The position numbers and the translations under genes were made by a program. Source: an uncultured archaeon (GTDB taxonomy: Archaea > Aenigmatarchaeota > Aenigmatarchaeia > QMZP01). From it: 59,609 nt of DNA. Below are positions 2,386 to 49,656 of this stretch, one piece after another. The notes under the pieces are model-generated. The model ran no database searches. It saw nothing but the letters and a program-made list of their open reading frames with translations, and was not told where the DNA came from. The number at the start of each line of letters is the position of its first letter. Within the stretch, counting starts at the first letter, position 1. The DNA lies in assembly GCA_964555875.1 (NCBI GenBank), contig CAZKUD010000002.1, positions 1 to 59,609 on the forward strand, read 5' to 3'.

Positions 2386-3500
2386 GCAAGGAAATTGAGA
2401 ACCTGCCTGGCGTTGGCGCCAAGACAGCAGAGAAGCTTATAGAGGCCGGATATGAGGACCTGATGTCGATAGCCGCCACCTCTGCAGGAGACCTGATGGA
2501 CGCCGCAGGGGTTGGTGAGGAGACCGCAGCAAAGATAATAGCAGCTGCAAGGGACGGCATGGAGATGGGGTTCGAGCCCGCCACAAAGGTGCTGGAAAAG
2601 AGGGCCACTGTCGGGAAGATAACCACAGGCTCCAAGGACCTGGACGAGCTCCTGGGAGGAGGGATCGAGACCCAGTGCATAATAGAGGCACACGGGGCCT
2701 TCGGCTCAGGGAAGTCCCAGCTTGCGCACCAGCTGGCTGTTAACGTCCAGCTGCCCAAGGAGAGGGGCGGACTGGGAGGAAAGGCGATATTCATTGACAC
2801 TGAGCAGACCTTCAGGCCCGAGAGGATAATGCAGATGGCTGAGGCGGCTGGCCTGGACCCGAAGCAGGCGCTGGAGAACGTGCTGATGGCAAGGGCATAC
2901 AACTCTGACCACCAGATGGTGCTGGCAGAGAAGGCTGAGGAGTTCGTGAAGGACAACAACGTCAAGATAATAATAATAGACTCCCTGACCAGCGCGTTCC
3001 GTTCAGACTACACGGGAAGGGGAACATTGGCGAACAGGCAGCAGAAGCTGAACAGGCACCTGCACAAGCTGCAGAAGCTTGCTGACGTGCACAACCTTTC
3101 TATCTACGTGACCAACCAGGTGATGTCCAACCCGGGCGTCCTGTTCGGAGACCCCACAAGGCCCATTGGCGGGCATGTGCTGGGGCACCAGGCCACCTTC
3201 CGCCTTTACCTGAGGAAGTCCAAGGGGGAGAAGAGGATAGCCAAGCTGATAGACTCGCCCTGCCTGCCAGAAGGGGAGACCGTCTTCCAGGTCAAGCCTG
3301 AGGGGCTCACGAACGACGACGGCTCCAGGAGCTTCGACATCGTGCCCGAAGAGGAGCCCAGGAAGGCCAGGAAGAAGAAAGCGGAACCCAAGGAAGAGGC
3401 GCCTGAAGGGGAGCCTAAGCCTGAAAAGAATAAGAAAGAGGAATCCTCTGACGCGCACCAAGAAGAGGCCCAAAAGGAATCACCAGAAGAAGCTGCATAA
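2382..3500 (+). CDS. radA: DNA repair and recombination protein RadA with a C-terminal low-complexity extension
   Basis: N-terminal HhH ([12 protein letters not shown]), Walker A GAFGSGKS, Walker [43 protein letters not shown]. Confidence 0.97.
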
Positions 3501-3527
3501 TTTAAGTAAGGCACACCAAAACAAATT

Positions 3528-3812
3528 ATGAGAGTCAAACTGAACTATATAATAGACGTGGCGATGGCATTGGCCTTCATGATTGTGTTCGTGACAGGCA
3601 TAATCAAGCTGCCGGCCCTGTACGGCTTCTGGGGCGTGAACCACAGGTACATGCTGACTGCCGCCACAACAATCATACACGACCAGGCAGGGCTGGTATT
3701 GGGGTGCCTGATAATACTGCACATAACCCTTCACATAAAGTGGTACTGGAACGTGACAAAGTCATTCTTGAGAAAGGGAGGTAAGAAAGATGCTGGCAAA
3801 AAGTCCGATTGA
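3528..3812 (+). CDS. Small membrane protein, DUF4405/cytochrome b-like
   Basis: Two hydrophobic helices with His pattern IIHD...ILHITLHIKW. Confidence 0.65.
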   Translation: MRVKLNYIIDVAMALAFMIVFVTGIIKLPALYGFWGVNHRYMLTAATTIIHDQAGLVLGCLIILHITLHIKWYWNVTKSFLRKGGKKDAGKKSD

Positions 3813-4464: not shown

Positions 4465-7400
4465 TCACCGCTTTGTCAAGAAATAGGCGGCTGCCAGTAT
4501 CACCAGAATAGCGACCACGGCAACCACGCCGTAAAGCAGGTAATCCGCCAGGGGTTCAGGTTGGGCCACAGGGGCAGCAGTCGACGGCGCCTCCTCTTGC
4601 TGGACCGGGGCCTCGGCCGGGGTGTAGCAGAAGCCGTCATTCCCGCAACTGCCTGCGCAGTCCGCATCAGTGACGCACCTCATGCCGTCAGCGCACGGTA
4701 GGCAGGAACCTCCGCAGTCAACATCGCTTTCGTCCCCGTTCAGGATGCCGTCAGAGCATGTAGCAGGAGGCACATACTCGCATGCCCGCTCCTCTGTCTT
4801 GTCCTTGGTGGAGCACGTGCCCGTGTTTTCGCAGAACCTGTGCTGGGTGCCGTTCGGCAGGCAGGCTGACCAGTCCTCACATTCCCAGACAATCGAACAC
4901 GGGGACGGGGGAGTTGTAGTGCTTTCCTCAGCGGCTGCTGCGGCTGCTGCGGCTGTGCTGCCGCCGATTCCCCACAGGCTGAAGTGGGTCGTGTTGGCCC
5001 AGACATAGTTGTTGGCTGTGTCCACCCCGCCGTCCGGCGGGTCGTAAGCGCTCCAGCTGTCGCTGGTGGCGTTGTAGTAGTGTATCCTCAGGCTGCTCTC
5101 GTCGAGGTTTTGGGCCGAAACTTCGGCATCGGTGTAGTATATCTTGATGATGGCATAGCTTAGGCTTGTCATACCGGTAGATATGCTGACATACCTTCCA
5201 AGCTCCTGCACGCCGAATGCTGACGTGGTCGGGTTGCTGTTGAACTCGTTCATGGTGACTGGAACGCTCTCGTTCTGATCTGTGACTATGTCCAGCGCAG
5301 AATTCATGCCTGTGGTGGACTGGTTGATCGAGTATTCATTGCCTGCGGTGGTGCTGGCCGTGGTGTTGTAGGTGTCGCTGTAGTTGGTGGCCAGCAGGGA
5401 CCAGGTGTCGGACAGGCCCACATTCGAGTTGGAATCGTTGCACCTGACATACCACCTGTGGAACGCAAGGGTCGTGTAGACGTTCGCGAAGGTGCTGTTG
5501 GCGTTGTCTGTCACGGCCGAGTAAGCCTTGCTCTCGTTCGCCAAATTGTCAATGTAGAGGGTGCAGTTGTTGCTGGCTGAATTGTTGACCAGGTTGGTGG
5601 GATAGAATATGAAGTTGACGTTCCCGGACGCCGTGAGTATATGGTCATTGACGGGGGACTTCAGTTTTACGCAGAAACTGTTGCCCGTGGCTGTCACGCT
5701 GCCCCCGCTGGCAGTGACTATTCCCTGGCTGTTGTCGCATATGGTGTTTCCCGTGGCAGTTGCGCTGCTGCTTCCGCTGGCGTGGATGGCCGGACCGCTG
5801 TCAGTGTAACGGATGATGTTGTCAGATATCGTGTTGCCCGTGGAGCCGATGGCCAGCCTGATGCCGTAATCAGTGTTGTTGAGTATGGTGTTCTGGTCTA
5901 TGGTGTTGTCCTTGCTGTTCGTCTGGAGGTAGATGCCTGTCTTCGGGGTACGGGTGTTGAAGCTCACTGTGTTGTTGTAGACTGTGTTGCTGTTGGAATT
6001 GACTATATGTATCCCTGTATCGCAGTGCGAGGCGTTGTTGTGGCTTATGGTTGAGCCGTTGACGTTTTCGATGTATATGCCGCTGACCGCCAATGCATAG
6101 TTGTTGTACAGCGTGTTTCCCGTGATAGTGTGGCCGACAGAGTTGACCAGGTATATGCCTGAAGAGAACCCGTCCACAATGCAGTCAGTGATTGTAAGGC
6201 TGTCTATCCCGTTTGCCTGTATGCCGTAATCCTGGCCTCCGGTGAAATGGTCCCAGCTGGTATGGGATATCTTATGGCCCGCGCAGTCCAGGGTTATGCC
6301 GGAGCTGCCGAGCGCCAGGGCATTGTCATCACACAGCAGGTCCTGGGACATCGTGAAACCGGACGTCAGGGTGTGGCCGCAGAGCTCTGTGAACACTGTC
6401 GTTGTAAGGCCAAGGTTGGTATAGCTGTCATTGGCATAGACCGTTATGTTAGAGACTCCCCCGTAGCTGGAGAGGTCTATGCTGCTCACGTTGGCGCAGC
6501 TGTCCAGGGACGTATTGGGGCCTTCGTTTATGCTGTACCAGCAGCTGTCCAGATTGATGTCGCTTGCGCTGTAGTTCAGGCCGTTCAGGTAGCTGTACAG
6601 CGTGCTGCCGCTTGACGGGTTGTATATCGTGATGTCCGGCGGTATGACGTCCACGTATATAGATGTGGCGGCTGTTGCATTATGGCCGCTCATGCCTCCG
6701 TAGTCCTCGGCATAGGCTGTCATCGCGTTCCATCCTGAGCCGAGAGTCGGGGAAGTGAAGTTGCAGACGTAGTATTCATAGTCATCGTACATGTTGCAGG
6801 TCATGTTGTCTATGGTGTACCCCTGCCCCTGGACCTGGACAAGTATGGTCGCATTGTTTATAGCAGTCCCTGTACCGTTGAAGCTAACGTTGACCGGAGG
6901 CATGTCATTGTTCGTGGAGCTGCCGTTCTGCGGAGTGATAAAGGTCACCACAGGGTTCTGGGTGTCAGACGCGGAATACCCGGAGAATCCGTATACCTGG
7001 AACGTGAGGTTCTCGCCATCATAGCTTATGGTGGAGCTGTTGACGCCTGCGGCGCCTGCATCGGCCAGGACTGCAGGCGTGCTTTTGAAAGGCAGGTAGT
7101 AAAGTGTTATCGTAGTCGTGGTGTTCAGGGCCGCGAAGGCTGTGGTATTGACATATATGTAGCTGTCCCCGTACGAGAAGGGCGGATAAACGGTCACGCT
7201 TATGGCGTCCCCCAGGTTATCCAGTGCCTGACCGGTTGCCGGGTCTGACATGTTGATGGAACTCATGTTCAGCAGGGCTGAGCGCAGATATCCCTGTTCT
7301 GTCTGGAATCCGCAGGACTGAGTCCTGTTCAGGAAGATGTCTATGATGAAATTGATTGAATCAAAGTCAAGCTCTGTGCTCAGGTTCGTCGTGAGCGCAC

Positions 7401-10400
7401 CGAACGCCTCGCATCCGGACTGTTCGCTCGGGGGCACCGTGAAGTTGTAAAGTATCACGGGATTGGAAGACATGCCAATCATGGGCAATGGGTTGTTGGC
7501 ATTGTCATAAGCCATTATGGTTGTGTTGAACCCCTCGAAGTCATAGTCAGCGCCTGTCACAGTGTAGCTCGCGTTGTAATACCCGCCGCCCATCGGCGTC
7601 ATGTTGACGGATGCGTCATCGAAGGTGAAGTTTGCTGTTACATTGGCCACCCCTGATTCCCCGTCGGTAACGTTGGCGACAAGGTGAACGACATTGTTGC
7701 CGGACGCTGTGCTGTAGAAGTAATCAGTATCGTTCAGCCAGGCATGGACGAAAGTCGGGGGGATGTTGTCAACCGTAACCGTTATGTTGGCATTGTTGAA
7801 GTTGCCCGCAGAGTCATTGGCCAGAATCTGCAGCACGCAGGAGCCCTGGCCTGCCGTGCTGGTGTCCCACCAGCCTGTCTCGTAATCTGCCGTCGCATTG
7901 ATGATGGTGCTGGTGAACATGGCCTGCATGTCCCCTCCGCAGTAGGAATTGAACGTCGCATAATCCCAGCCGGATGTGGAGTCGTCAACAGTGTAATTCA
8001 CCGTCACGTTGCCCGTCAGGACATCGCTGTCTGACGGGCTGTTCCAGGAAAGCCCGGGAGCGGTGTCGTCAATGCCAAGTTCCACCATTTCGGTATTGTT
8101 GACATTGTTCGCGCTGTCGTTTGCGAAAATCGTGATGTTGTATGCACCATCAGGAACCCCTGTGATGTCAAAGGTGGCGTTCCAGAAGTTGCCGTCCTGG
8201 CTCATGGCCGTCCAGGGGCCGTTGTGCGTGGAGTTCTCCCACCTGTATGCGACAGTATGCGTGCCAGACCCTGTATCAATAACGCTTGCGTTAATCACGA
8301 AATTGTGGTTGTACCACATGTTCATGGGCAGGATCATCATTACAACCGGATTTGTCTCGTCTACGATTACCTCCCTCTCTTCGCTGGCATTGAAGTTGTA
8401 GACGTATCCGCTGCCTCCCCACTTCATGGCGGAGTCATTGGCATAGACGACGAAAGAGGTGCTCCCCTCGAACATGTAAGTCATGTTGTGCCAGCAGCTC
8501 ACGCTCTTGCCTGATCCCACCCTGGTCATCGTTATGTTGTACATTTTGCTCACTTCCAGGATGCAGCCCGTTATTGGGGTCAGGGCATCTGTCACTGTGA
8601 CATTGACATATGTCCAGTTAACAGCCCTGCACGTGAGGTTGTCAGGCGTCGGGTAGACGAAGTTCACTGAAGACGGAGGGGTCATGTCGACTGTCAGGGT
8701 CCTGTTGGCGTCAGACCAGTCTTCATTGCCTGCGCTGTCATTGCAGTAGGCTCCCCATACATGCTGGCCCTCGGGCAGGCCGTCCACTTCTGCGGTCCAC
8801 ATCGCGCTGTCCACAGGACTGGTGTTGGTCTGGTTGGCGTGCCAGGTCCCTGTCCAGTTGCCCCAGAGCTGGAGGGTGTTTGGCATCATGTTGTCGCTGC
8901 AGTTCAGGTCGAACCAGTAGGACGGGTTGGAGCTGTTCCAGTCATCGCTCGGCATCCAGTCAAGCGTTGCAGTCGGGGGAGTTTCGTCTGTAGTGAACTG
9001 CCTGGTCTCGCTGACGTTGAAGTTGCCATTTGTGCCAACGGAGTCATTCGCGTATACCCTGTAATCATAAAGCGCCTGGTTCAGATTAGTGATGTTGATC
9101 CAGCAGTTCACGCTGTTGCCTGAGCCCACCCTTGCCATGGTATAATTGTTGTTGTACATCTCCAGGATGCAGCCCGTTACGGCTGTGGCCGCGTCCGTAA
9201 CGGTCACGTTGACGTATGTCCAGTTCACGTTCCTGTAAGTGTTGTTGTCGGGCGTCGGGTAGACGAAGCTGACGGACGAAGGCGGAGAAGTGTCGAGCGT
9301 GACGTTCCTGACTGATTCATTGCCGAAGTTGTTGAGGGTGTCATTGGCATAGACCTTGTAGGTATGGGTTCCGTCGCTGTCCGTCTTGTTGTACCAGCAG
9401 ATTGCCCCGCCAGACACTGTGTCAGCCTTACCCATGGTGTAGTTCGTGCCATCCCATTCCAGGAGGCAGTCCGAGACGGATACGCCGTCTGACACGCTCA
9501 CGTTGACGAAGGCCCATTCCTGGGACAGGTTAGCATCGTCTATCGGAGGTATGCTCGATACAAGGTAGGAGACAGAAGGCCCTGTCTGGTCAACCGTAAA
9601 GGTGCCGTTAATATCCGACCAGTCGCTGTTGCCTGCGCTGTCATTGCAATAGACACCCCATATCCAGGTTCCCTCCTGTATTCCGTCAACGGTCACGTTC
9701 CAGATGACATCATTATGCGGGGATGAGTTGGTCTGGTTCAGGTGCCATGTACCTGTCCAGTTGCCCCAGAGCTGGAGGGTATTAGGATTGGAGTCAGAGC
9801 AGTTCAGGCCGAAAGTGACGCTCGAGCTGGAGGTGTTATGCCCCTCGACAGGCTGGACAGGTTCACCTACCGTGGCTATTGGATTTGTCTCGTCTACGAT
9901 TACCTCCCTCTCTTCGCTGGCATTGAAGTTGTAGACGTATCCGCTGCCTCCCCACTTCATGGCGGAGTCATTGGCATAGACGACGAAAGAGGTGCTCCCC
10001 TCGAACATGTAAGTCATGTTGTGCCAGCAGCTCACGCTCTTGCCTGATCCCACCCTGGTCATCGTTATGTTGTACATTTTGCTCACTTCCAGGATGCAGC
10101 CCGTTATTGGGGTCAGGGCATCTGTCACTGTGACATTGACATATGTCCAGTTAACAGCCCTGCACGTGAGGTTGTCAGGCGTCGGGTAGACGAAGTTCAC
10201 TGAAGACGGAGGGGTCATGTCGACTGTCAGGGTCCTGTTGGCGTCAGACCAGTCTTCATTGCCTGCGCTGTCATTGCAGTAGGCTCCCCATACATGCTGG
10301 CCCTCGGGCAGGCCGTCCACTTCTGCGGTCCACATCGCGCTGTCCACAGGACTGGTGTTGGTCTGGTTGGCGTGCCAGGTCCCTGTCCAGTTGCCCCAGA

Positions 10401-36657: not shown

Positions 36658-36918
36658 TTAAACGATGTCTTTCTCGGAAACTATGACGAAGTCTCCCACA
36701 GACTTCACCGCAGAGAACGGCACGAGCATCCTCTTCCTGTCGTCAGAAGGCAGGCTGAGTGTTGCGGTGTGCGGGGTCGTCTCCGAAAGGACCAGGTTTA
36801 TCAGCTCGCCAGACTCTGACACGTAGTCTATGTCCCCTATCATGCCGAACTTCTTGCCCGTCTCCTCAGAAACAAGGACCTTTCCTATGAGCTCTTTGCT
36901 CCTTATCCTCTCCTCCAT
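36658..36918 (-). CDS. PRC-barrel domain protein (CdpB-like)
   Basis: ELIGKVLVSEETGKKFGMIGDI...VPFSAVKSVGDFVIV. Confidence 0.8.
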   Translation of the reverse strand: MEERIRSKELIGKVLVSEETGKKFGMIGDIDYVSESGELINLVLSETTPHTATLSLPSDDRKRMLVPFSAVKSVGDFVIVSEKDIV

Positions 36919-37040
36919 GTAATCCTCCTAAGCATCAAACCGATGATATGATATTAGAGATAGGTTTTAAATACTTTTGCGCGTGCCGGAAAATCAGGCA
37001 GTCACCAGGATTGGGTTGAACCTGGCGCAGAGAACACACA

Positions 37041-37418
37041 TCAATTGTGGGATATCCTGTGTTTTATCATGGATGGGCTCTTTGCTGTTATTCTTGGGAT
37101 CATGACAGGGAATTCCAGCTGCTCTTTGCTTATTTTCGTTAAAATGAACATCCTTATGAAAAGGAAATTATTCTGCACAGATGTCTGGACTTTGCACGAT
37201 ATTATATTGGCAAGGGCATTCTTGTCCATCTTAAACTTTCTGACAAGCGGTTTCAGGAATTCTGTCGCATCCATAATCTCTATGGCGGCCAGCTTCTTGT
37301 TACTGTCAAAGTCTAGGACCAGTTTTCCGAATTCCACGCTTCCTTTTGATTTTTTCTTTCCGTTGTAAACGAAAAGGTCGTCATTTTCCATGTCGTAGTC
37401 GAATTTAAACTCTTGCAT
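37041..37418 (-). CDS. DUF2283-family protein (putative antitoxin)
   Basis: FDYDMENDDLFVY...LVLDFDSNKKLAAIEIMDA; overlaps the upstream DUF4258-like gene. Confidence 0.8.
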   Translation of the reverse strand: MQEFKFDYDMENDDLFVYNGKKKSKGSVEFGKLVLDFDSNKKLAAIEIMDATEFLKPLVRKFKMDKNALANIISCKVQTSVQNNFLFIRMFILTKISKEQLEFPVMIPRITAKSPSMIKHRISHN

Positions 37419-37734
37419 ATTTCTCAACCATGTTCTGCCATCTTCTGTTGATTTTGATTGCTGTACATATTATAATTTTCCTGTTGATTATTAAAACGTA
37501 CCTGTGGCACATCGTGTTACTGTAAACGAAGTAACAGTCATATTTTTCTTCTCCTGGTTTTCTGGATTTTTGCCTGGCTGCGAAGGCCAGCCTTTTCGGA
37601 TTCACTATGTTTTCTTTCACCTCTTCCAGATTCAGGCCTCTCTGGACTGCCCTTATCTTTGCATGGCTGGTGAATATCACATCCTTCTTTGAGTATGTTT
37701 TCAGCCGCTCTACAAGGCTTCTCTTCTCGTTCAT
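37405..37734 (-). CDS. DUF4258-family protein (RelE/BrnT-like putative toxin)
   Basis: IFTSHAKIRAVQRGL motif; basic protein. Confidence 0.75.
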   Translation of the reverse strand: MNEKRSLVERLKTYSKKDVIFTSHAKIRAVQRGLNLEEVKENIVNPKRLAFAARQKSRKPGEEKYDCYFVYSNTMCHRYVLIINRKIIICTAIKINRRWQNMVEKYARV

Positions 37735-37809
37735 GATGGCCTAGGAATGAGTTGGCAACAAGAAGCTTAAAGATGGGGTTAGGAGCATTCCACTATTCCG
37801 CTAGAATTA

Positions 37810-38856
37810 TCAGGCAGTCACCAGAACGGAGTTGAAGCGGCTTGAGACCCTGTACTTGTAGGTCTTGCCTACCTTCTTCCTGTCCACCAGGCCGTCTGCC
37901 ATCAGGCGCCTGAGGAGGTTGTTGACGGAACGGACTGCATTGTCCTTGTTCTTGTACTCGTCCCCCTTAATGCCCTTGGCTATCTCGGAGGGGGTCATCT
38001 CTCCCCCCTCTGAAAGGGTGTCCATTATGAGCTTCTGCCTTTCCGGGAGCTCCTGGACAGTGTCCATAGAAAGCTTCCTCTCTGGCTCCTCCGCGCCCTT
38101 CATTATGTCAGGCTCGACAGTTGAGACGCCCTTCTCCATCGCCCTCTGCACCATCTCGTCGCAGGTCTTGAGCACCTCCCTGGGGAAGCCCCCTGTCCTG
38201 TCATAGATGTAGTCCACAGCGTTGGTCGTGAAGGGCTTGATGTCGTCCCCTCCTATCCCCTCTATCCTCCTCTTTATGAGCTCCCTTGTCTCTGCCTTGG
38301 AGAGGTTTGTCAGGTTCACGTGTATGTTCACGCGCCTCATGAAGGTTTCCAGCCTGTCCATCATGGTCTTCTCAAAGACAGGAAGGCCAGCCAGGATTAT
38401 GAACAGGTTGTCAGTCTGGTCAGTTATGGTCCTTATCCATTCCAGGCTGTCCAGGCTGGCCTCATGGCACTCGTCGATGAAGAGTAGGCACTTCCTGCCG
38501 TTGAGCTTCTTGTTGAGATGTTCGTAGAGGTTGTATATGTTCACGTCCTTCCTTAGGAAGGAAAATTTGGAGGGTTTCAAGACCGGGTTGAATACCGTGA
38601 CCCAGTCGTCAGCGCTCTTTGGGGGCTTTGGAAGATATATGACATCAGAGCCGGGGAACCTCCTCACGAGGTATCTCATGAAGGTCGTCTTGCCTGAGCC
38701 CGTCGGGCCCAGGAGTATGGAGAACTTGCTGCCGTTGTTGAGGCCCTCTGTGAAGGTCTCGGTCTCCTTCTCATAGCCCACGAAATATTCAGGGAGGATC
38801 CTGAAGCTAAAAGGATTCTCGTCCCACCTGAACAGCTCCCTCGCCCTTTCGTTCAT
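37810..38856 (-). CDS. AAA+ ATPase (ExeA/GspA-like, initiator clade) with C-terminal winged helix
   Basis: ENPFS, GPTGSGKTT, FIDECHE, ILAGLP, TGGFPRE; C-terminal TPSEIAKGI...LRRLMADGLVDRKKVGKTYKY. Confidence 0.88.
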   Translation of the reverse strand: MNERARELFRWDENPFSFRILPEYFVGYEKETETFTEGLNNGSKFSILLGPTGSGKTTFMRYLVRRFPGSDVIYLPKPPKSADDWVTVFNPVLKPSKFSFLRKDVNIYNLYEHLNKKLNGRKCLLFIDECHEASLDSLEWIRTITDQTDNLFIILAGLPVFEKTMMDRLETFMRRVNIHVNLTNLSKAETRELIKRRIEGIGGDDIKPFTTNAVDYIYDRTGGFPREVLKTCDEMVQRAMEKGVSTVEPDIMKGAEEPERKLSMDTVQELPERQKLIMDTLSEGGEMTPSEIAKGIKGDEYKNKDNAVRSVNNLLRRLMADGLVDRKKVGKTYKYRVSSRFNSVLVTA

Positions 38857-49201: not shown

Positions 49202-49579
49202 ATGCTTGACACGATATTCTCCCTGTTCGGGCATCTCAGCACGATGAACATGGCAGTGCTGCTGGTACTGCTTGTGGTGGGCATAGTCATAGCCATGAAG
49301 GTGTTCGGCTACCTGCTCAGGGCAGTCCTGACAGGGATAGCCTTCGGGATATTCCCGATAGTGGCCAGCTACCTGGGGCTTCCAGTGGCGGTCACCATAA
49401 ACACGATAGTCAGCTCCGCCATATTCGGCATAATACTCTACATGGCGTTCTCGGCAATCAAGATGGCCTACGGGGTCCTGAAGGTCGCTCTCTGGCCCGT
49501 CAGGAAGCTCCTGGGCATGGGAAAGGGCGGCGAGAAGCCCCAGGTAATAATAAGGGAAGTCGAGAAGAAGGAAGACTGA
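49202..49579 (+). CDS. Hypothetical membrane protein (3 TM)
   Basis: Hydrophobic segments, host-like codons. Confidence 0.75.
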   Translation: MLDTIFSLFGHLSTMNMAVLLVLLVVGIVIAMKVFGYLLRAVLTGIAFGIFPIVASYLGLPVAVTINTIVSSAIFGIILYMAFSAIKMAYGVLKVALWPVRKLLGMGKGGEKPQVIIREVEKKED

Positions 49580-49656
49580 TTCTTGGATGAAACCTTATGC
49601 GGAGATAGCCCGAAGGGGCAAGGTTCCGGAAGTCGAGAGGAAGGAAGACTGATTCT
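49555..49656. repeat. 29-bp direct repeat (1 mismatch) duplicating a gene 3' end around a 44-bp structured spacer
   Basis: ggaagtcgagaRgaaggaagactgattct at 49555-49583 and 49628-49656. Confidence 0.9.

What the first reader, a model, noticed from the sequence alone, without database searches (positions are those of the whole stretch)
36993..37824. TA islet integrated into the 3' end of a protein-coding gene, leaving a diverged copy of the gene end
Seen: the ATPase ends RFNSVLVTA*. 816 bp downstream a second copy reads RFNPILVTA* (16 bp identical including the stop, with mostly synonymous or conservative differences beyond). Between them lies a 25-40% GC segment carrying only a DUF4258-DUF2283 pair. 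Inference: an element integrated at an att site in the last codons, restored the gene with its own version of the end, then lost its integrase. The target is a CDS rather than a tRNA, and TA cargo next to a possible origin could stabilise the locus.
Basis: partly seen in the sequence, partly recalled or inferred. Interest (0 to 1): 0.62.

Follow-up and report, generated by a model that had tools for sequence, protein, structure and literature searches.

The report
Toxin-antitoxin cassette inserted at gene end
A small foreign two-gene toxin-antitoxin cassette sits in the last 30 bases of a conserved archaeal ATPase gene, flanked by two copies of the gene end. The same cassette family is flanked by unrelated repeats at about ten other places, so it may move as a unit without its own integrase.

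Summary
A 28-nt direct repeat (24/28, with an exact 16-mer found nowhere else in the 1.09-Mb genome) brackets an 816-bp unit. The unit holds only a DUF4258 toxin gene and a DUF2283 antitoxin gene, at about 40% GC against 55% in the flanks.

The sister species has the empty site: its ATPase stop is followed directly by the PRC-barrel gene. That adjacency is the norm across the order (Aenigmarchaeota, DPANN).

This is an insertion into the 3' end of a coding gene. However, the gene's own end is host-type, and the diverged copy (RFNPILVTA) is the distal one, which most likely came in with the element. "Lost its integrase" is not supported. In 10 of 77 loci of this TA family the pair alone is flanked by direct repeats of 14 to over 100 nt. 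Each repeat has a different sequence, the junctions hug the ORFs, and only one of these loci has an integrase nearby. "Possible origin" is not supported either: two true Orc1/Cdc6 genes lie elsewhere in the genome.

Best reading (0.45): a circular TA cassette carried a related lineage's gene-end fragment and recombined once with the chromosomal gene end, helped in trans by a recombinase or by host recombination.

Main rival (0.3): insertion with long target duplication, as described for restriction-modification modules.

This is a new variant of a known kind and of moderate interest.

The parts
37810..38856 (-). Target gene: a conserved 348-aa P-loop ATPase (AAA_22) with a C-terminal winged-helix domain. 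It is intact and ends RFNSVLVTA*.
   Evidence: ORF. Pfam AAA_22 at 53.7 bits and Penicillinase_R-type wHTH at 26.2 bits. Below the Orc1/Cdc6 cut-offs. Found in 40 of 41 related genomes.
37809..37836 (.). Proximal direct repeat (DR1, attL-like): the last 8 codons, the stop and 1 nt of the ATPase gene.
   Evidence: It is 26/28 identical to the single copy at the empty site of G001.
37735..37808 (-). Left junction of the insert: 74 nt between DR1 and the toxin ATG. A TATA-like TCTTTAAG lies about 31 nt upstream of the ATG.
   Evidence: Read directly from the sequence. It has no counterpart at the G001 empty site. The promoter assignment is inferred.
37405..37734 (-). Toxin gene: 109 aa, DUF4258-type, predicted BECR-fold RNase. 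All family-invariant residues are present (H24, R32, Y68, F69, R78, Y79, T91, N96, Q100).
   Evidence: AF2 model with pLDDT 85.7. Best PDB fold hits are the TA toxin 7vd7_A and BrnT. Literature placement.
37041..37418 (-). Antitoxin gene: 125 aa counted from the conserved ATG (MQEFKFDYD). It has an N-terminal DUF2283 domain and a conserved C-terminal beta-rich half, and it overlaps the toxin stop by 14 nt.
   Evidence: 25.4 bits against a 23-bit cut-off; 43-sequence alignment; pLDDT 91. No solved structural relative was found. The pair is conserved in 84 of 86 loci.
37021..37040 (.). Right junction of the insert: about 17-20 nt between the antitoxin stop and the distal repeat.
   Evidence: Read directly from the sequence.
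36993..37020 (.). Distal direct repeat (DR2, attR-like). It is a non-functional gene-end copy reading (R)FNPILVTA*, with an exact 16-nt core and a diverged 12-nt arm.
   Evidence: It is 25/28 identical to the G001 target and 24/28 to DR1. It is followed by the native intergenic sequence, which is collinear with G001.
36658..36992 (-). Native downstream unit left undisturbed: an intergenic region with BRE/TATA (AAAAGTATTTAAAA) and GGAGG, followed by the PRC-barrel gene (86 aa).
   Evidence: (PRC at 26 bits; conserved neighbour). The sequence is collinear with G001.

Best explanation
A horizontally acquired cassette of about 0.79 kb entered the lineage of this Aenigmarchaeote after it split from its sister species. 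The cassette holds only a type II toxin-antitoxin pair: a DUF4258/BECR-fold RNase toxin followed by a translationally coupled DUF2283 antitoxin.

The most likely mechanism is one reciprocal crossover inside the last ~30 nt of the ATPase gene. One partner was the chromosomal gene end. The other was a copy of the same gene end from a related archaeon, carried on a small circular form of the cassette and acting as an att-like site. The exchange fell in the 16-nt identical core.

The result is that the ATPase keeps a host-type, intact C-terminus. The cassette follows it. The foreign gene-end fragment (RFNPILVTA*) sits distal, next to the untouched promoter of the PRC-barrel gene.

The cassette has no recombinase of its own. 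The crossover would have been made in trans by a tyrosine recombinase or by host homologous recombination. The pair then persists because losing it is toxic (addiction).

Shown: the insertion polymorphism, the repeat, the foreign composition, intact TA genes, and recurrence of repeat-flanked TA-only cassettes in the family. Inferred: the circular intermediate, who catalysed the crossover, and toxicity with rescue.
For: 1. Repeat and empty site. The direct repeat is unique in the genome. G001 has an empty site equal to the left flank, one repeat copy and the right flank. Adjacency is ancestral across the order, and no relative has a TA next to the ATPase.

2. Foreign origin. GC is 0.40 against 0.55. 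Close toxin homologues occur in only 5 of 91 genomes of the order. The cassette is less GC-rich than its flanks in 69 of 74 family loci.

3. Pattern of the repeat.
- All 4 mismatches lie in a 6-nt window on the gene-internal side, and the 16 nt on the terminal side are identical. My count gives a chance of about 0.01 for such clustering.
- At the three third-position sites where DR1 differs from G001, DR2 never shares the G000 state (it matches G001 twice, and is a third base once). DR1-DR2 (24/28) is no closer than either copy is to the G001 target (26/28 and 25/28). DR2 therefore behaves like an allele from a third lineage, not a recent in-situ copy.
- RFN...LVTA is genus-specific, and P and I at the changed positions occur in orthologues.

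4. Family parallels.
- In L111 the remnant and the functional gene end differ by 5 synonymous changes, one stop-to-stop change and 1 conservative change over 36 codons.
- In L110 the two copies encode KKADWGN* and KKDGWEN*.
- In L036 the same TA is bracketed by tRNA-Gln 3' end copies (14 exact of 22, divergence again on the internal side) with a tyrosine integrase just beyond.
- The L036 and L041 cassettes are 87% identical over 813 bp, including the element-side att copy, while their flanks are unrelated.

5. TA-only units. 10 of 77 loci have flank-to-flank alignment scores of at least 17, against 0 of 924 cross-locus nulls. Junctions lie 0-8 nt from the antitoxin stop in most. Integrases lie within 4 kb at only 2 distinct loci.
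Against: - No circular form, donor allele (an ATPase ending RFNPILVTA) or element with the same core was found.
- The repeats at the other loci are all different in sequence and range from 14 to over 100 nt. A single site-specific recombinase does not explain that. It fits 'long variable target duplication' at least as well.
- The statistical arguments for a foreign DR2 rest on very few sites (4-6 differences) and were framed after seeing the data.
- A 16-nt identity within about 30 nt of homology is short for RadA-type recombination.
- The only tyrosine recombinases in the assembly are on another contig and have no similar site.
- A second gene-end duplication in the same window is nearly the same length (29 nt). 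It flanks a 44-nt insert far too small to have been a recombining circle, which hints at a staggered-cut mechanism.
Confidence: 0.45

Rival explanations
1. Insertion with long target duplication. The TA cassette was ligated into a staggered break, or copied in by template switching, and about 28-31 nt of the target was filled in on both sides. Both repeat copies were identical at first. The in-gene copy then evolved under selection and the distal copy drifted. This is the phenomenon described for restriction-modification modules in bacteria.
For: - Family pattern: addiction-module-only inserts, no mobility genes, repeats of unrelated sequence and variable length (14 to over 100 nt), junctions tight to the ORFs, and targets overlapping gene 3' ends.
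- These are exactly the criteria of Furuta et al. 2010 (PMC2853133) and Nobusato et al. 2000, which also report lower GC in the inserts and repeats overlapping gene 3' ends.
- The amount of divergence of DR2 (3/28 from the G001 target) is compatible with neutral drift since a time after the split. Four-fold sites differ by 39% between the two species.
- A second gene-end repeat of 29 nt lies 12 kb away and flanks only 44 nt.
Against: - The mismatches in this locus, in L036 and in L111 cluster on the gene-internal side instead of being spread evenly.
- The changes in L111 and L110 look like coding-type divergence, including stop-to-stop.
- DR1 and DR2 share no derived site relative to G001.
- At 28 nt the repeat is below the 30-bp criterion used in that literature.
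- No Cas1/casposase-type enzyme that makes long duplications is present in the assembly.
- The mechanism itself has never been demonstrated.
Confidence: 0.3
2. First reader's model. A larger integrative element with its own tyrosine integrase integrated at an att site in the last codons of the ATPase gene. Internal deletions then removed everything except the TA pair, which cannot be lost.
For: - The repeat has att-like anatomy, with a core plus a diverged arm.
- Archaeal integrative elements are known to use 3'-distal parts of protein-coding genes as well as tRNA genes (Krupovic et al. 2019, PMC6563490, found; the statement rests on my knowledge of that paper).
- In L036 a tyrosine integrase, an HTH_17 excisionase-like gene and other element genes lie immediately beyond the distal repeat of the same TA family.
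- In L041 and L088 one extra ORF travels with the pair.
Against: - Only 74 nt and about 17 nt separate the TA genes from the repeats, with no integrase fragment there.
- The same TA-only, tight-junction architecture recurs at about 10 loci. No intermediate with TA and an integrase inside one repeat pair was seen among 77 loci. That would require many independent deletions ending at the same places.
- In L036 the integrase is outside the repeat pair, and no third att copy exists in that genome.
Confidence: 0.15
3. The TA pair is ancestral at this position. The sister species, and other relatives, lost it by recombination between the repeats. Alternatively, the islet is an assembly chimera.
For: - Repeat-mediated deletion would regenerate exactly the G001 sequence.
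- The genome is a metagenome assembly that contains scaffold-gap artefacts elsewhere.
Against: - Empty adjacency is seen in at least 25 genomes from several families of the order, and none has a TA at this place.
- The GC is strongly foreign.
- The toxin is patchy, in 5 of 91 genomes.
- A 16-nt repeat is shorter than the assembler word size implied by the 55-nt gap overlaps. A chimera would also not return to the same locus after 816 bp inside a 176-kb contig.
Confidence: 0.05

Closest known systems
[quoted passage not shown] 2000, Gene 259:99; Furuta, Abe & Kobayashi 2010, PMC2853133)
   Same: - An addiction-type gene pair is the only cargo, with no transposase or integrase.
- It is flanked by direct repeats of unique host sequence that often overlap a gene's 3' end.
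- An empty site with one copy exists in a close relative.
- The insert has lower GC than the host.
- Repeat length and sequence differ from locus to locus.
   Different: - The cargo is a type II TA pair with an RNase-fold toxin, not a DNA-cutting RM system. The double-strand-break idea proposed for RM does not carry over.
- The hosts are DPANN archaea, not naturally competent bacteria.
- The repeat here is 28 nt, below their 30-bp criterion.
- Several repeat pairs look like alleles from different lineages rather than fresh duplications.
Integrase-less, att-flanked islets mobilised in cis or trans (CIMEs next to ICEs in streptococci; satellite or decayed integrative elements)
   Same: - Direct repeats with a core and a diverged arm bracket a unit that lacks recombination genes.
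- In relative L036 the TA unit sits in tandem with an integrase-bearing element at a tRNA-Gln gene, like a CIME-ICE accretion.
   Different: - No helper element with the same att exists in this genome.
- The unit is only 0.8 kb.
- The att sequences differ between loci.
Archaeal integrative elements that target tRNA genes or 3'-distal parts of protein-coding genes via tyrosine recombinases (for example those catalogued in Thaumarchaeota, PMC6563490; review PMC8371274)
   Same: - A CDS 3' end serves as target, and the gene is kept intact by the duplicated end.
- The content is compositionally foreign.
   Different: - There is no integrase, no replication or viral genes, and the size is 10-100 times smaller.
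- The papers were located but not read in detail.
DUF4258 (PF14076) toxins of the RelE/ParE-BECR superfamily
   Same: - Sequence family and predicted alpha/beta fold agree, and a small adjacent partner gene is present.
- The literature lists DUF4258 as a TA toxin family of unknown activity.
   Different: - The gene order is toxin then antitoxin, whereas the review tabulates A/T.
- The partner is a two-domain DUF2283 protein of about 120 aa, not an HTH/MqsA-type antitoxin.
- The window protein scores below Pfam's gathering threshold.

Membership tests
DUF4258 / BECR-fold (RelE-ParE superfamily) TA toxin | A match to Pfam PF14076 above the gathering score. | tested here: not met
   19.0 bits against a 25-bit cut-off, E 0.0017, covering profile positions 1-69 of 71. 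Several 50-65% identical homologues carry a precomputed PF14076 hit.
DUF4258 / BECR-fold (RelE-ParE superfamily) TA toxin | A compact alpha/beta BECR fold: N-terminal helices followed by a 4-stranded antiparallel sheet. | tested here: inconclusive
   The AF2 model has pLDDT 85.7 and topology H-E-H-H-E-E-E-E-H. The best Foldseek PDB hits are the TA toxin 7vd7_A (probability 0.99, TM 0.50/0.56, E 0.02) and BrnT 3u97 (probability 0.91, TM 0.45/0.59). None reaches E<=0.001.
Type II toxin-antitoxin pair | Two small adjacent co-oriented genes that are conserved as a pair. | tested here: met
   The genes overlap by 14 nt. The antitoxin follows the toxin in 84 of 86 loci.
Type II toxin-antitoxin pair | The toxin arrests growth and the antitoxin neutralises it by binding. 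| not testable with these tools
   This needs expression in a laboratory strain. The only indirect sign is a relative (G006) with a broken toxin and an intact antitoxin.
DUF2283 (PF10049) | A Pfam match above the gathering score. | tested here: met
   25.4 bits against a 23-bit cut-off, residues 8-54.
Site-specific integrative element (tyrosine recombinase type) | Direct repeats (attL/attR) bound the insert, and an empty attB exists in relatives. | tested here: met
Site-specific integrative element (tyrosine recombinase type) | An integrase gene, or a recognisable fragment, lies inside the element. | tested here: not met
   Only the two TA ORFs have family matches. The PF00589 hits in the genome lie on contig C6.
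Site-specific integrative element (tyrosine recombinase type) | The same att core is reused by related elements or in other genomes. | tested here: not met
   There is no further copy in the genome. The JGI metagenome scan with TTCAACNNNNTNCTGGTGACTGCCTGA found none. Family members have unrelated repeats.
[quoted passage not shown] 2010 criteria) | The insert holds only the addiction module, is under 20 kb and has no mobility genes. | tested here: met
   The criteria are quoted.
[quoted passage not shown] 2010 criteria) | The target duplication is longer than 30 bp. | tested here: not met
   The repeat here is 28 nt, or 31 with the synonymous R codon. Other loci of the family reach 39 to over 100 nt.
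[quoted passage not shown] 2010 criteria) | Both copies derive from the single local target and are near-identical to it. | tested here: inconclusive
   The copies are 26/28 and 25/28 identical to the G001 target and 24/28 to each other, with no shared derived site.
Orc1/Cdc6 replication initiator (for the target ATPase, 'possible origin') | Curated family scores for TIGR02928 or the Pfam ORC-CDC6-like and Cdc6_C models. | tested here: not met
   TIGR02928 scores 24.2 bits against a 181.3-bit cut-off. PF24389 scores 23.9 bits against 27. Two genuine matches lie elsewhere in the genome, at 425.7 and 200.5 bits.

The most novel reading that the evidence does not exclude
This DUF4258-DUF2283 pair may be a self-contained mobile cassette of DPANN archaea that spreads without any dedicated recombinase. 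It would leave a genome as a minicircle by recombination between its flanking repeats. It would then enter related or new genomes at gene 3' ends through host recombination or repair, leaving repeats of 14 to over 100 nt. That would make it the archaeal, TA-borne counterpart of the unexplained 'insertion with long target duplication' of restriction-modification modules.
Probability: 0.3. Interest if true: 0.7.

Novelty: new variant of a known kind. Interest (0 to 1): 0.5.

Why it matters
How toxin-antitoxin modules move between genomes when they are not riding on a plasmid, phage or transposon is poorly understood. This locus offers a clean filled-versus-empty pair in two sister species. It also belongs to a family of about 80 loci in which one in eight still carries the scars of insertion.

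That set is large enough to test whether addiction modules have a mobility route of their own, by reciprocal crossover at borrowed gene ends or by long target duplication. That idea was raised 25 years ago for restriction-modification systems and never resolved.

The locus also shows that very small symbiont-type archaeal genomes keep acquiring selfish cassettes at the few neutral places they have, namely gene ends. Finally, it flags an uncharacterised toxin with a structurally novel antitoxin partner.

Tried and rejected
- tRNA-derived att. The distal copy forms a T-arm-like hairpin (CCAGG-11 nt-CCTGG) followed by 7 nt. No tRNA of the genome ends in TGACTGCC, and there is no Rfam or tRNA hit in the region. 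I treat this as chance.
- Cas1/casposase-type integration as the source of a 28-29 nt duplication. No Cas1 is present in the assembly.
- Helper integrase in the same genome. Two small tyrosine recombinases lie on contig C6, but no similar site is near them.
- Donor allele. None of 120 ATPase homologues ends in NPILVTA, and the metagenome DNA pattern scan found nothing.
- Viral carriage. There is no relative of the toxin in IMG/VR.
- Free circles. The 0.8-kb public contigs with the toxin are truncated fragments, not closed units.
- Other insertions at the same site. Relatives with larger ATPase-PRC gaps (G019, G002, G018, G014, G004) hold unrelated genes and no gene-end repeats.
- Defence-system libraries. 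The pair has no PADLOC match.
- Third att copy beyond the integrase in the L036 genome. None was found.
- Read-level test of excision or empty alleles.
Full report
**Observation.** All genes in the region are on the minus strand.
- The 348-aa ATPase ORF (37810-38856) ends RFNSVLVTA*.
- The repeat finder returns one outstanding direct pair, 36993-37020 and 37809-37836: 28 nt, 24/28 identical, 816 bp apart.
- The exact 16-mer occurs twice in the window against zero expected. It occurs twice in the whole 1.09-Mb, 15-contig assembly even with one mismatch allowed.
- Read on the gene strand, the distal copy is AGG TTC AAC CCA ATC CTG GTG ACT GCC TGA, that is RFNPILVTA*.
- GC falls to 0.35-0.45 between the copies, against 0.52-0.59 outside.

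**What lies between and around the repeats.**
- Inside are two overlapping ORFs. One is a 109-aa protein with a sub-threshold DUF4258 match. The other is a 125/128-aa protein with an above-threshold DUF2283 match.
- Downstream lies an 86-aa PRC-barrel gene with its own BRE/TATA and Shine-Dalgarno-like GGAGG.
- The ATPase is an AAA_22 P-loop protein with a C-terminal winged helix. Public sources name its homologues 'AAA family ATPase' or 'ExeA-like', from Candidatus Aenigmatarchaeota.
- The ATPase is not an Orc1/Cdc6: it falls far below the curated cut-offs, and two genuine Orc1/Cdc6 genes lie on other contigs.

**Empty site.** The ATPase is present in 40 of 41 related genomes and the PRC-barrel gene in 37 of 41. 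In at least 25 genomes from several families the two genes are co-oriented neighbours 52-143 bp apart.

The one other genome of the same genus, G001, has an ATPase 93% identical in protein and 88.8% in DNA. It shows ...CGG TTC AAC TCT GTC CTG GTG ACT GCC TGA, followed directly by an intergenic sequence collinear with the one after the distal repeat here, and then the PRC-barrel start. The G001 sequence equals left flank + one repeat copy + right flank. The 816-bp unit is thus an insertion in the lineage of this genome.

Relatives with larger gaps hold unrelated genes and no gene-end repeats. None has this TA pair beside the ATPase.

**Which copy is whose.** Against the G001 target, the in-gene copy is 26/28 identical (two synonymous third-position changes). 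The distal copy is 25/28, and the two copies are 24/28 to each other.
- All four mismatches fall in the S/P and V/I codons, within 6 nt, on the gene-internal side. The 16 nt on the terminal side are identical. My count of 4-subsets spanning at most 6 of 28 positions gives about 0.01 for such clustering.
- At the three third positions where this genome differs from G001 (the R, S and V codons), the distal copy never carries this genome's state.
- RFN...LVTA is specific to this genus among 120 homologues. P and I do occur at the changed positions in orthologues.

Taken together, the distal copy looks like the end of a related lineage's ATPase gene rather than a fresh copy of the local one. The evidence is only a handful of sites. 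In an attB x attP scheme the in-gene copy is B-O and the distal copy is P-O. So the gene was not 'restored with the element's version' beyond the identical core.

**The cargo.**
- The toxin has 63 homologues at E<=0.001, almost all exactly 109 aa, mostly from DPANN archaea, with at most 75% identity.
- A 47-sequence alignment shows invariant H24, R32, Y68, F69, R78, Y79, T91, N96 and Q100, all present here.
- The literature places DUF4258 in the RelE/ParE-BECR ribonuclease superfamily and states that nothing is known experimentally (PMC11980606; bioRxiv 2026.08.28.747851).
- The AF2 model is confident (pLDDT 85.7). Its best but weak PDB matches are a Salmonella TA toxin and BrnT.
- The antitoxin family is about 120 aa with a conserved second half. 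Its model is very confident (pLDDT 91), but no solved structure resembles it.
- The pair is kept together in 84 of 86 loci.
- One relative has a broken toxin with an intact antitoxin, the usual way such pairs decay.
- Toxicity and rescue remain untested.

**The wider pattern.** I fetched 80 genomic loci encoding the toxin and compared the 300 nt upstream of the toxin with the 300 nt downstream of the antitoxin.
- Ten of 77 analysable loci give a direct local alignment score of at least 17. None of 924 cross-locus comparisons does; the maximum is 16.5.
- The repeats are all different in sequence and length:
  - the tRNA-Gln 3' end (L036, and L041 with one extra ORF);
  - the last codons of an upstream gene (L110, 42 exact);
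  - the last codons of a convergent downstream gene (L111, 74 exact within about 140; L087, 39 exact within 55; L048, 20);
  - a downstream promoter (L113, about 45);
  - others of 16-20 nt.
- In most, the distal repeat begins 0-8 nt after the antitoxin stop. In L110 the proximal repeat ends right at the toxin ATG.
- The cassette is less GC-rich than its flanks in 69 of 74 loci.
- Tyrosine recombinases lie within 4 kb at only two distinct loci.
- Within the order, close homologues occur in 5 of 91 genomes.

The finding is thus one instance of a recurrent, TA-only, repeat-flanked cassette.

**Clues to mechanism from the relatives.**
- In L036 the TA pair alone sits between the intact tRNA-Gln and a diverged copy of its 3' end. 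A tyrosine integrase, an HTH_17 gene and other element genes follow immediately. No third att copy exists in that genome.
- The L036 and L041 cassettes are 87% identical over 813 bp, including the element-side tRNA fragment, while their flanks are unrelated. L041 carries at least three att-like copies. This looks like site-specific accretion at a tRNA gene.
- In L111 the non-functional copy differs from the functional gene end by five synonymous changes, one stop-to-stop change and one conservative change over 36 codons. Under in-situ drift I estimate about 0.02 for so synonymous a spectrum.
- In L110 the two copies encode KKADWGN* and KKDGWEN*.

In these cases both copies look as if they evolved as coding sequence. 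That is expected if the incoming DNA carried a gene-end fragment from another lineage and recombined once with the resident gene end.

[quoted passage not shown] No mechanism is known for it (PMC2853133 and PMC2875022).

The divergence of the distal copy here is compatible with drift. Four-fold sites differ by 39% between the two species.

A second gene-end repeat lies 12 kb away: 49555-49583 and 49628-49656, 28/29 identical. It encloses only a 44-nt unit related to a 46-nt tandem repeat on contig C4. That insert is too small to have been a recombining circle. No Cas1-type enzyme is present.

I therefore rate the models as follows:
- borrowed-gene-end crossover: 0.45;
- target duplication: 0.30;
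- ancestral presence or artefact: 0.05.

**What could not be done.**
- No donor allele, helper element, viral carrier or free circle was found.

**Verdict.** The 'lost integrase' and 'origin' parts of the interpretation are not supported.

The thing is a small selfish TA cassette. Its closest described analogues are integrase-less att-flanked islets and the long-target-duplication insertions of restriction-modification modules. I score it as a new variant of a known kind, of moderate interest. Its main value is as an entry point to a testable family-wide pattern.

Noticed in passing
window 49555-49656 (and G000 contig C4 ~100660-100900): A second gene-end duplication. The last 7 codons, the stop and 5 nt of the 125-aa membrane-protein gene 49202-49579 are repeated 73 bp later, 28/29 identical. 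The 44-nt insert between them is one diverged unit of a 46-nt tandem repeat (GGATGAAACCTTATGCGGAG...GGCAAGGTT) found on contig C4.
   Followed up: partly
L036 5848-8443 (Aenigmatarchaeota MAG, JAFGSV010000004.1): The order is tRNA-Gln, then the same TA family, then a diverged tRNA 3'-end copy (858 bp spacing), then a 334-aa tyrosine integrase and an HTH_17 gene. This resembles an accretion of a TA mini-unit and an integrase-bearing element. No third att copy exists in that genome.
   Followed up: partly
L041 2112, 3436-3540, 4705-4809 (same place as L124 in G038): At least three copies of an att-like segment of about 100 nt (a tRNA-Gln end fragment plus flank) separate a 124-aa ORF and the TA pair. 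This is a small array of cassettes, and no intact tRNA was found in the locus.
   Followed up: partly
L101 1555-1600 and 4726-4770: The TA pair lies downstream of a 395-aa gene with an RHS/YD-like motif (HTDHLGSSSVVTD). That 45-nt stretch is repeated right after the antitoxin. The arrangement recalls displaced toxin-immunity tips of polymorphic toxin loci.
   Followed up: no
L126 (G006:C12 ~8130-8450): In a family-level relative the toxin gene is broken by a stop/frameshift while the antitoxin ORF is intact.
   Followed up: no
G000 contig C6 37647-38198 and 39895-40512: Two short (183- and 205-aa) tyrosine-recombinase genes lie 2 kb apart, in a region that may be an integrated element. They are the only PF00589 matches in the assembly.
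   Followed up: partly
L024 (G002:C4 51100-57300): In this relative the ATPase and PRC-barrel genes are 5.6 kb apart. Between them lie a RadA gene with a large intein-like insertion, a RelE/ParE-type TA pair, a CBS-domain regulator and a glutaredoxin-like gene.
   Followed up: no
L033 430-444 and L136 1310-1315: In the closest relatives of this cassette the toxin ATG starts 13 nt after the radA stop (L033) and 4 nt after the stop of a pyridine-nucleotide-disulfide oxidoreductase gene (L136). These are tight operon-like insertions with no detectable repeats.
   Followed up: no
G000 genome, e.g. C1 41093/41248, C1 65688/65843, C5 55803/55958: Exact 55-nt duplications lie on either side of runs of N, with a spacing of 155. 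These are scaffold-gap artefacts of the assembly, not biological repeats.
   Followed up: no
window 36995-37025 (minus strand): Only the distal repeat copy can form a 5-bp hairpin, CCAGG-(11 nt)-CCTGG, followed by 7 nt, which is loosely T-arm-like. No tRNA with that acceptor end exists in the genome.
   Followed up: yes
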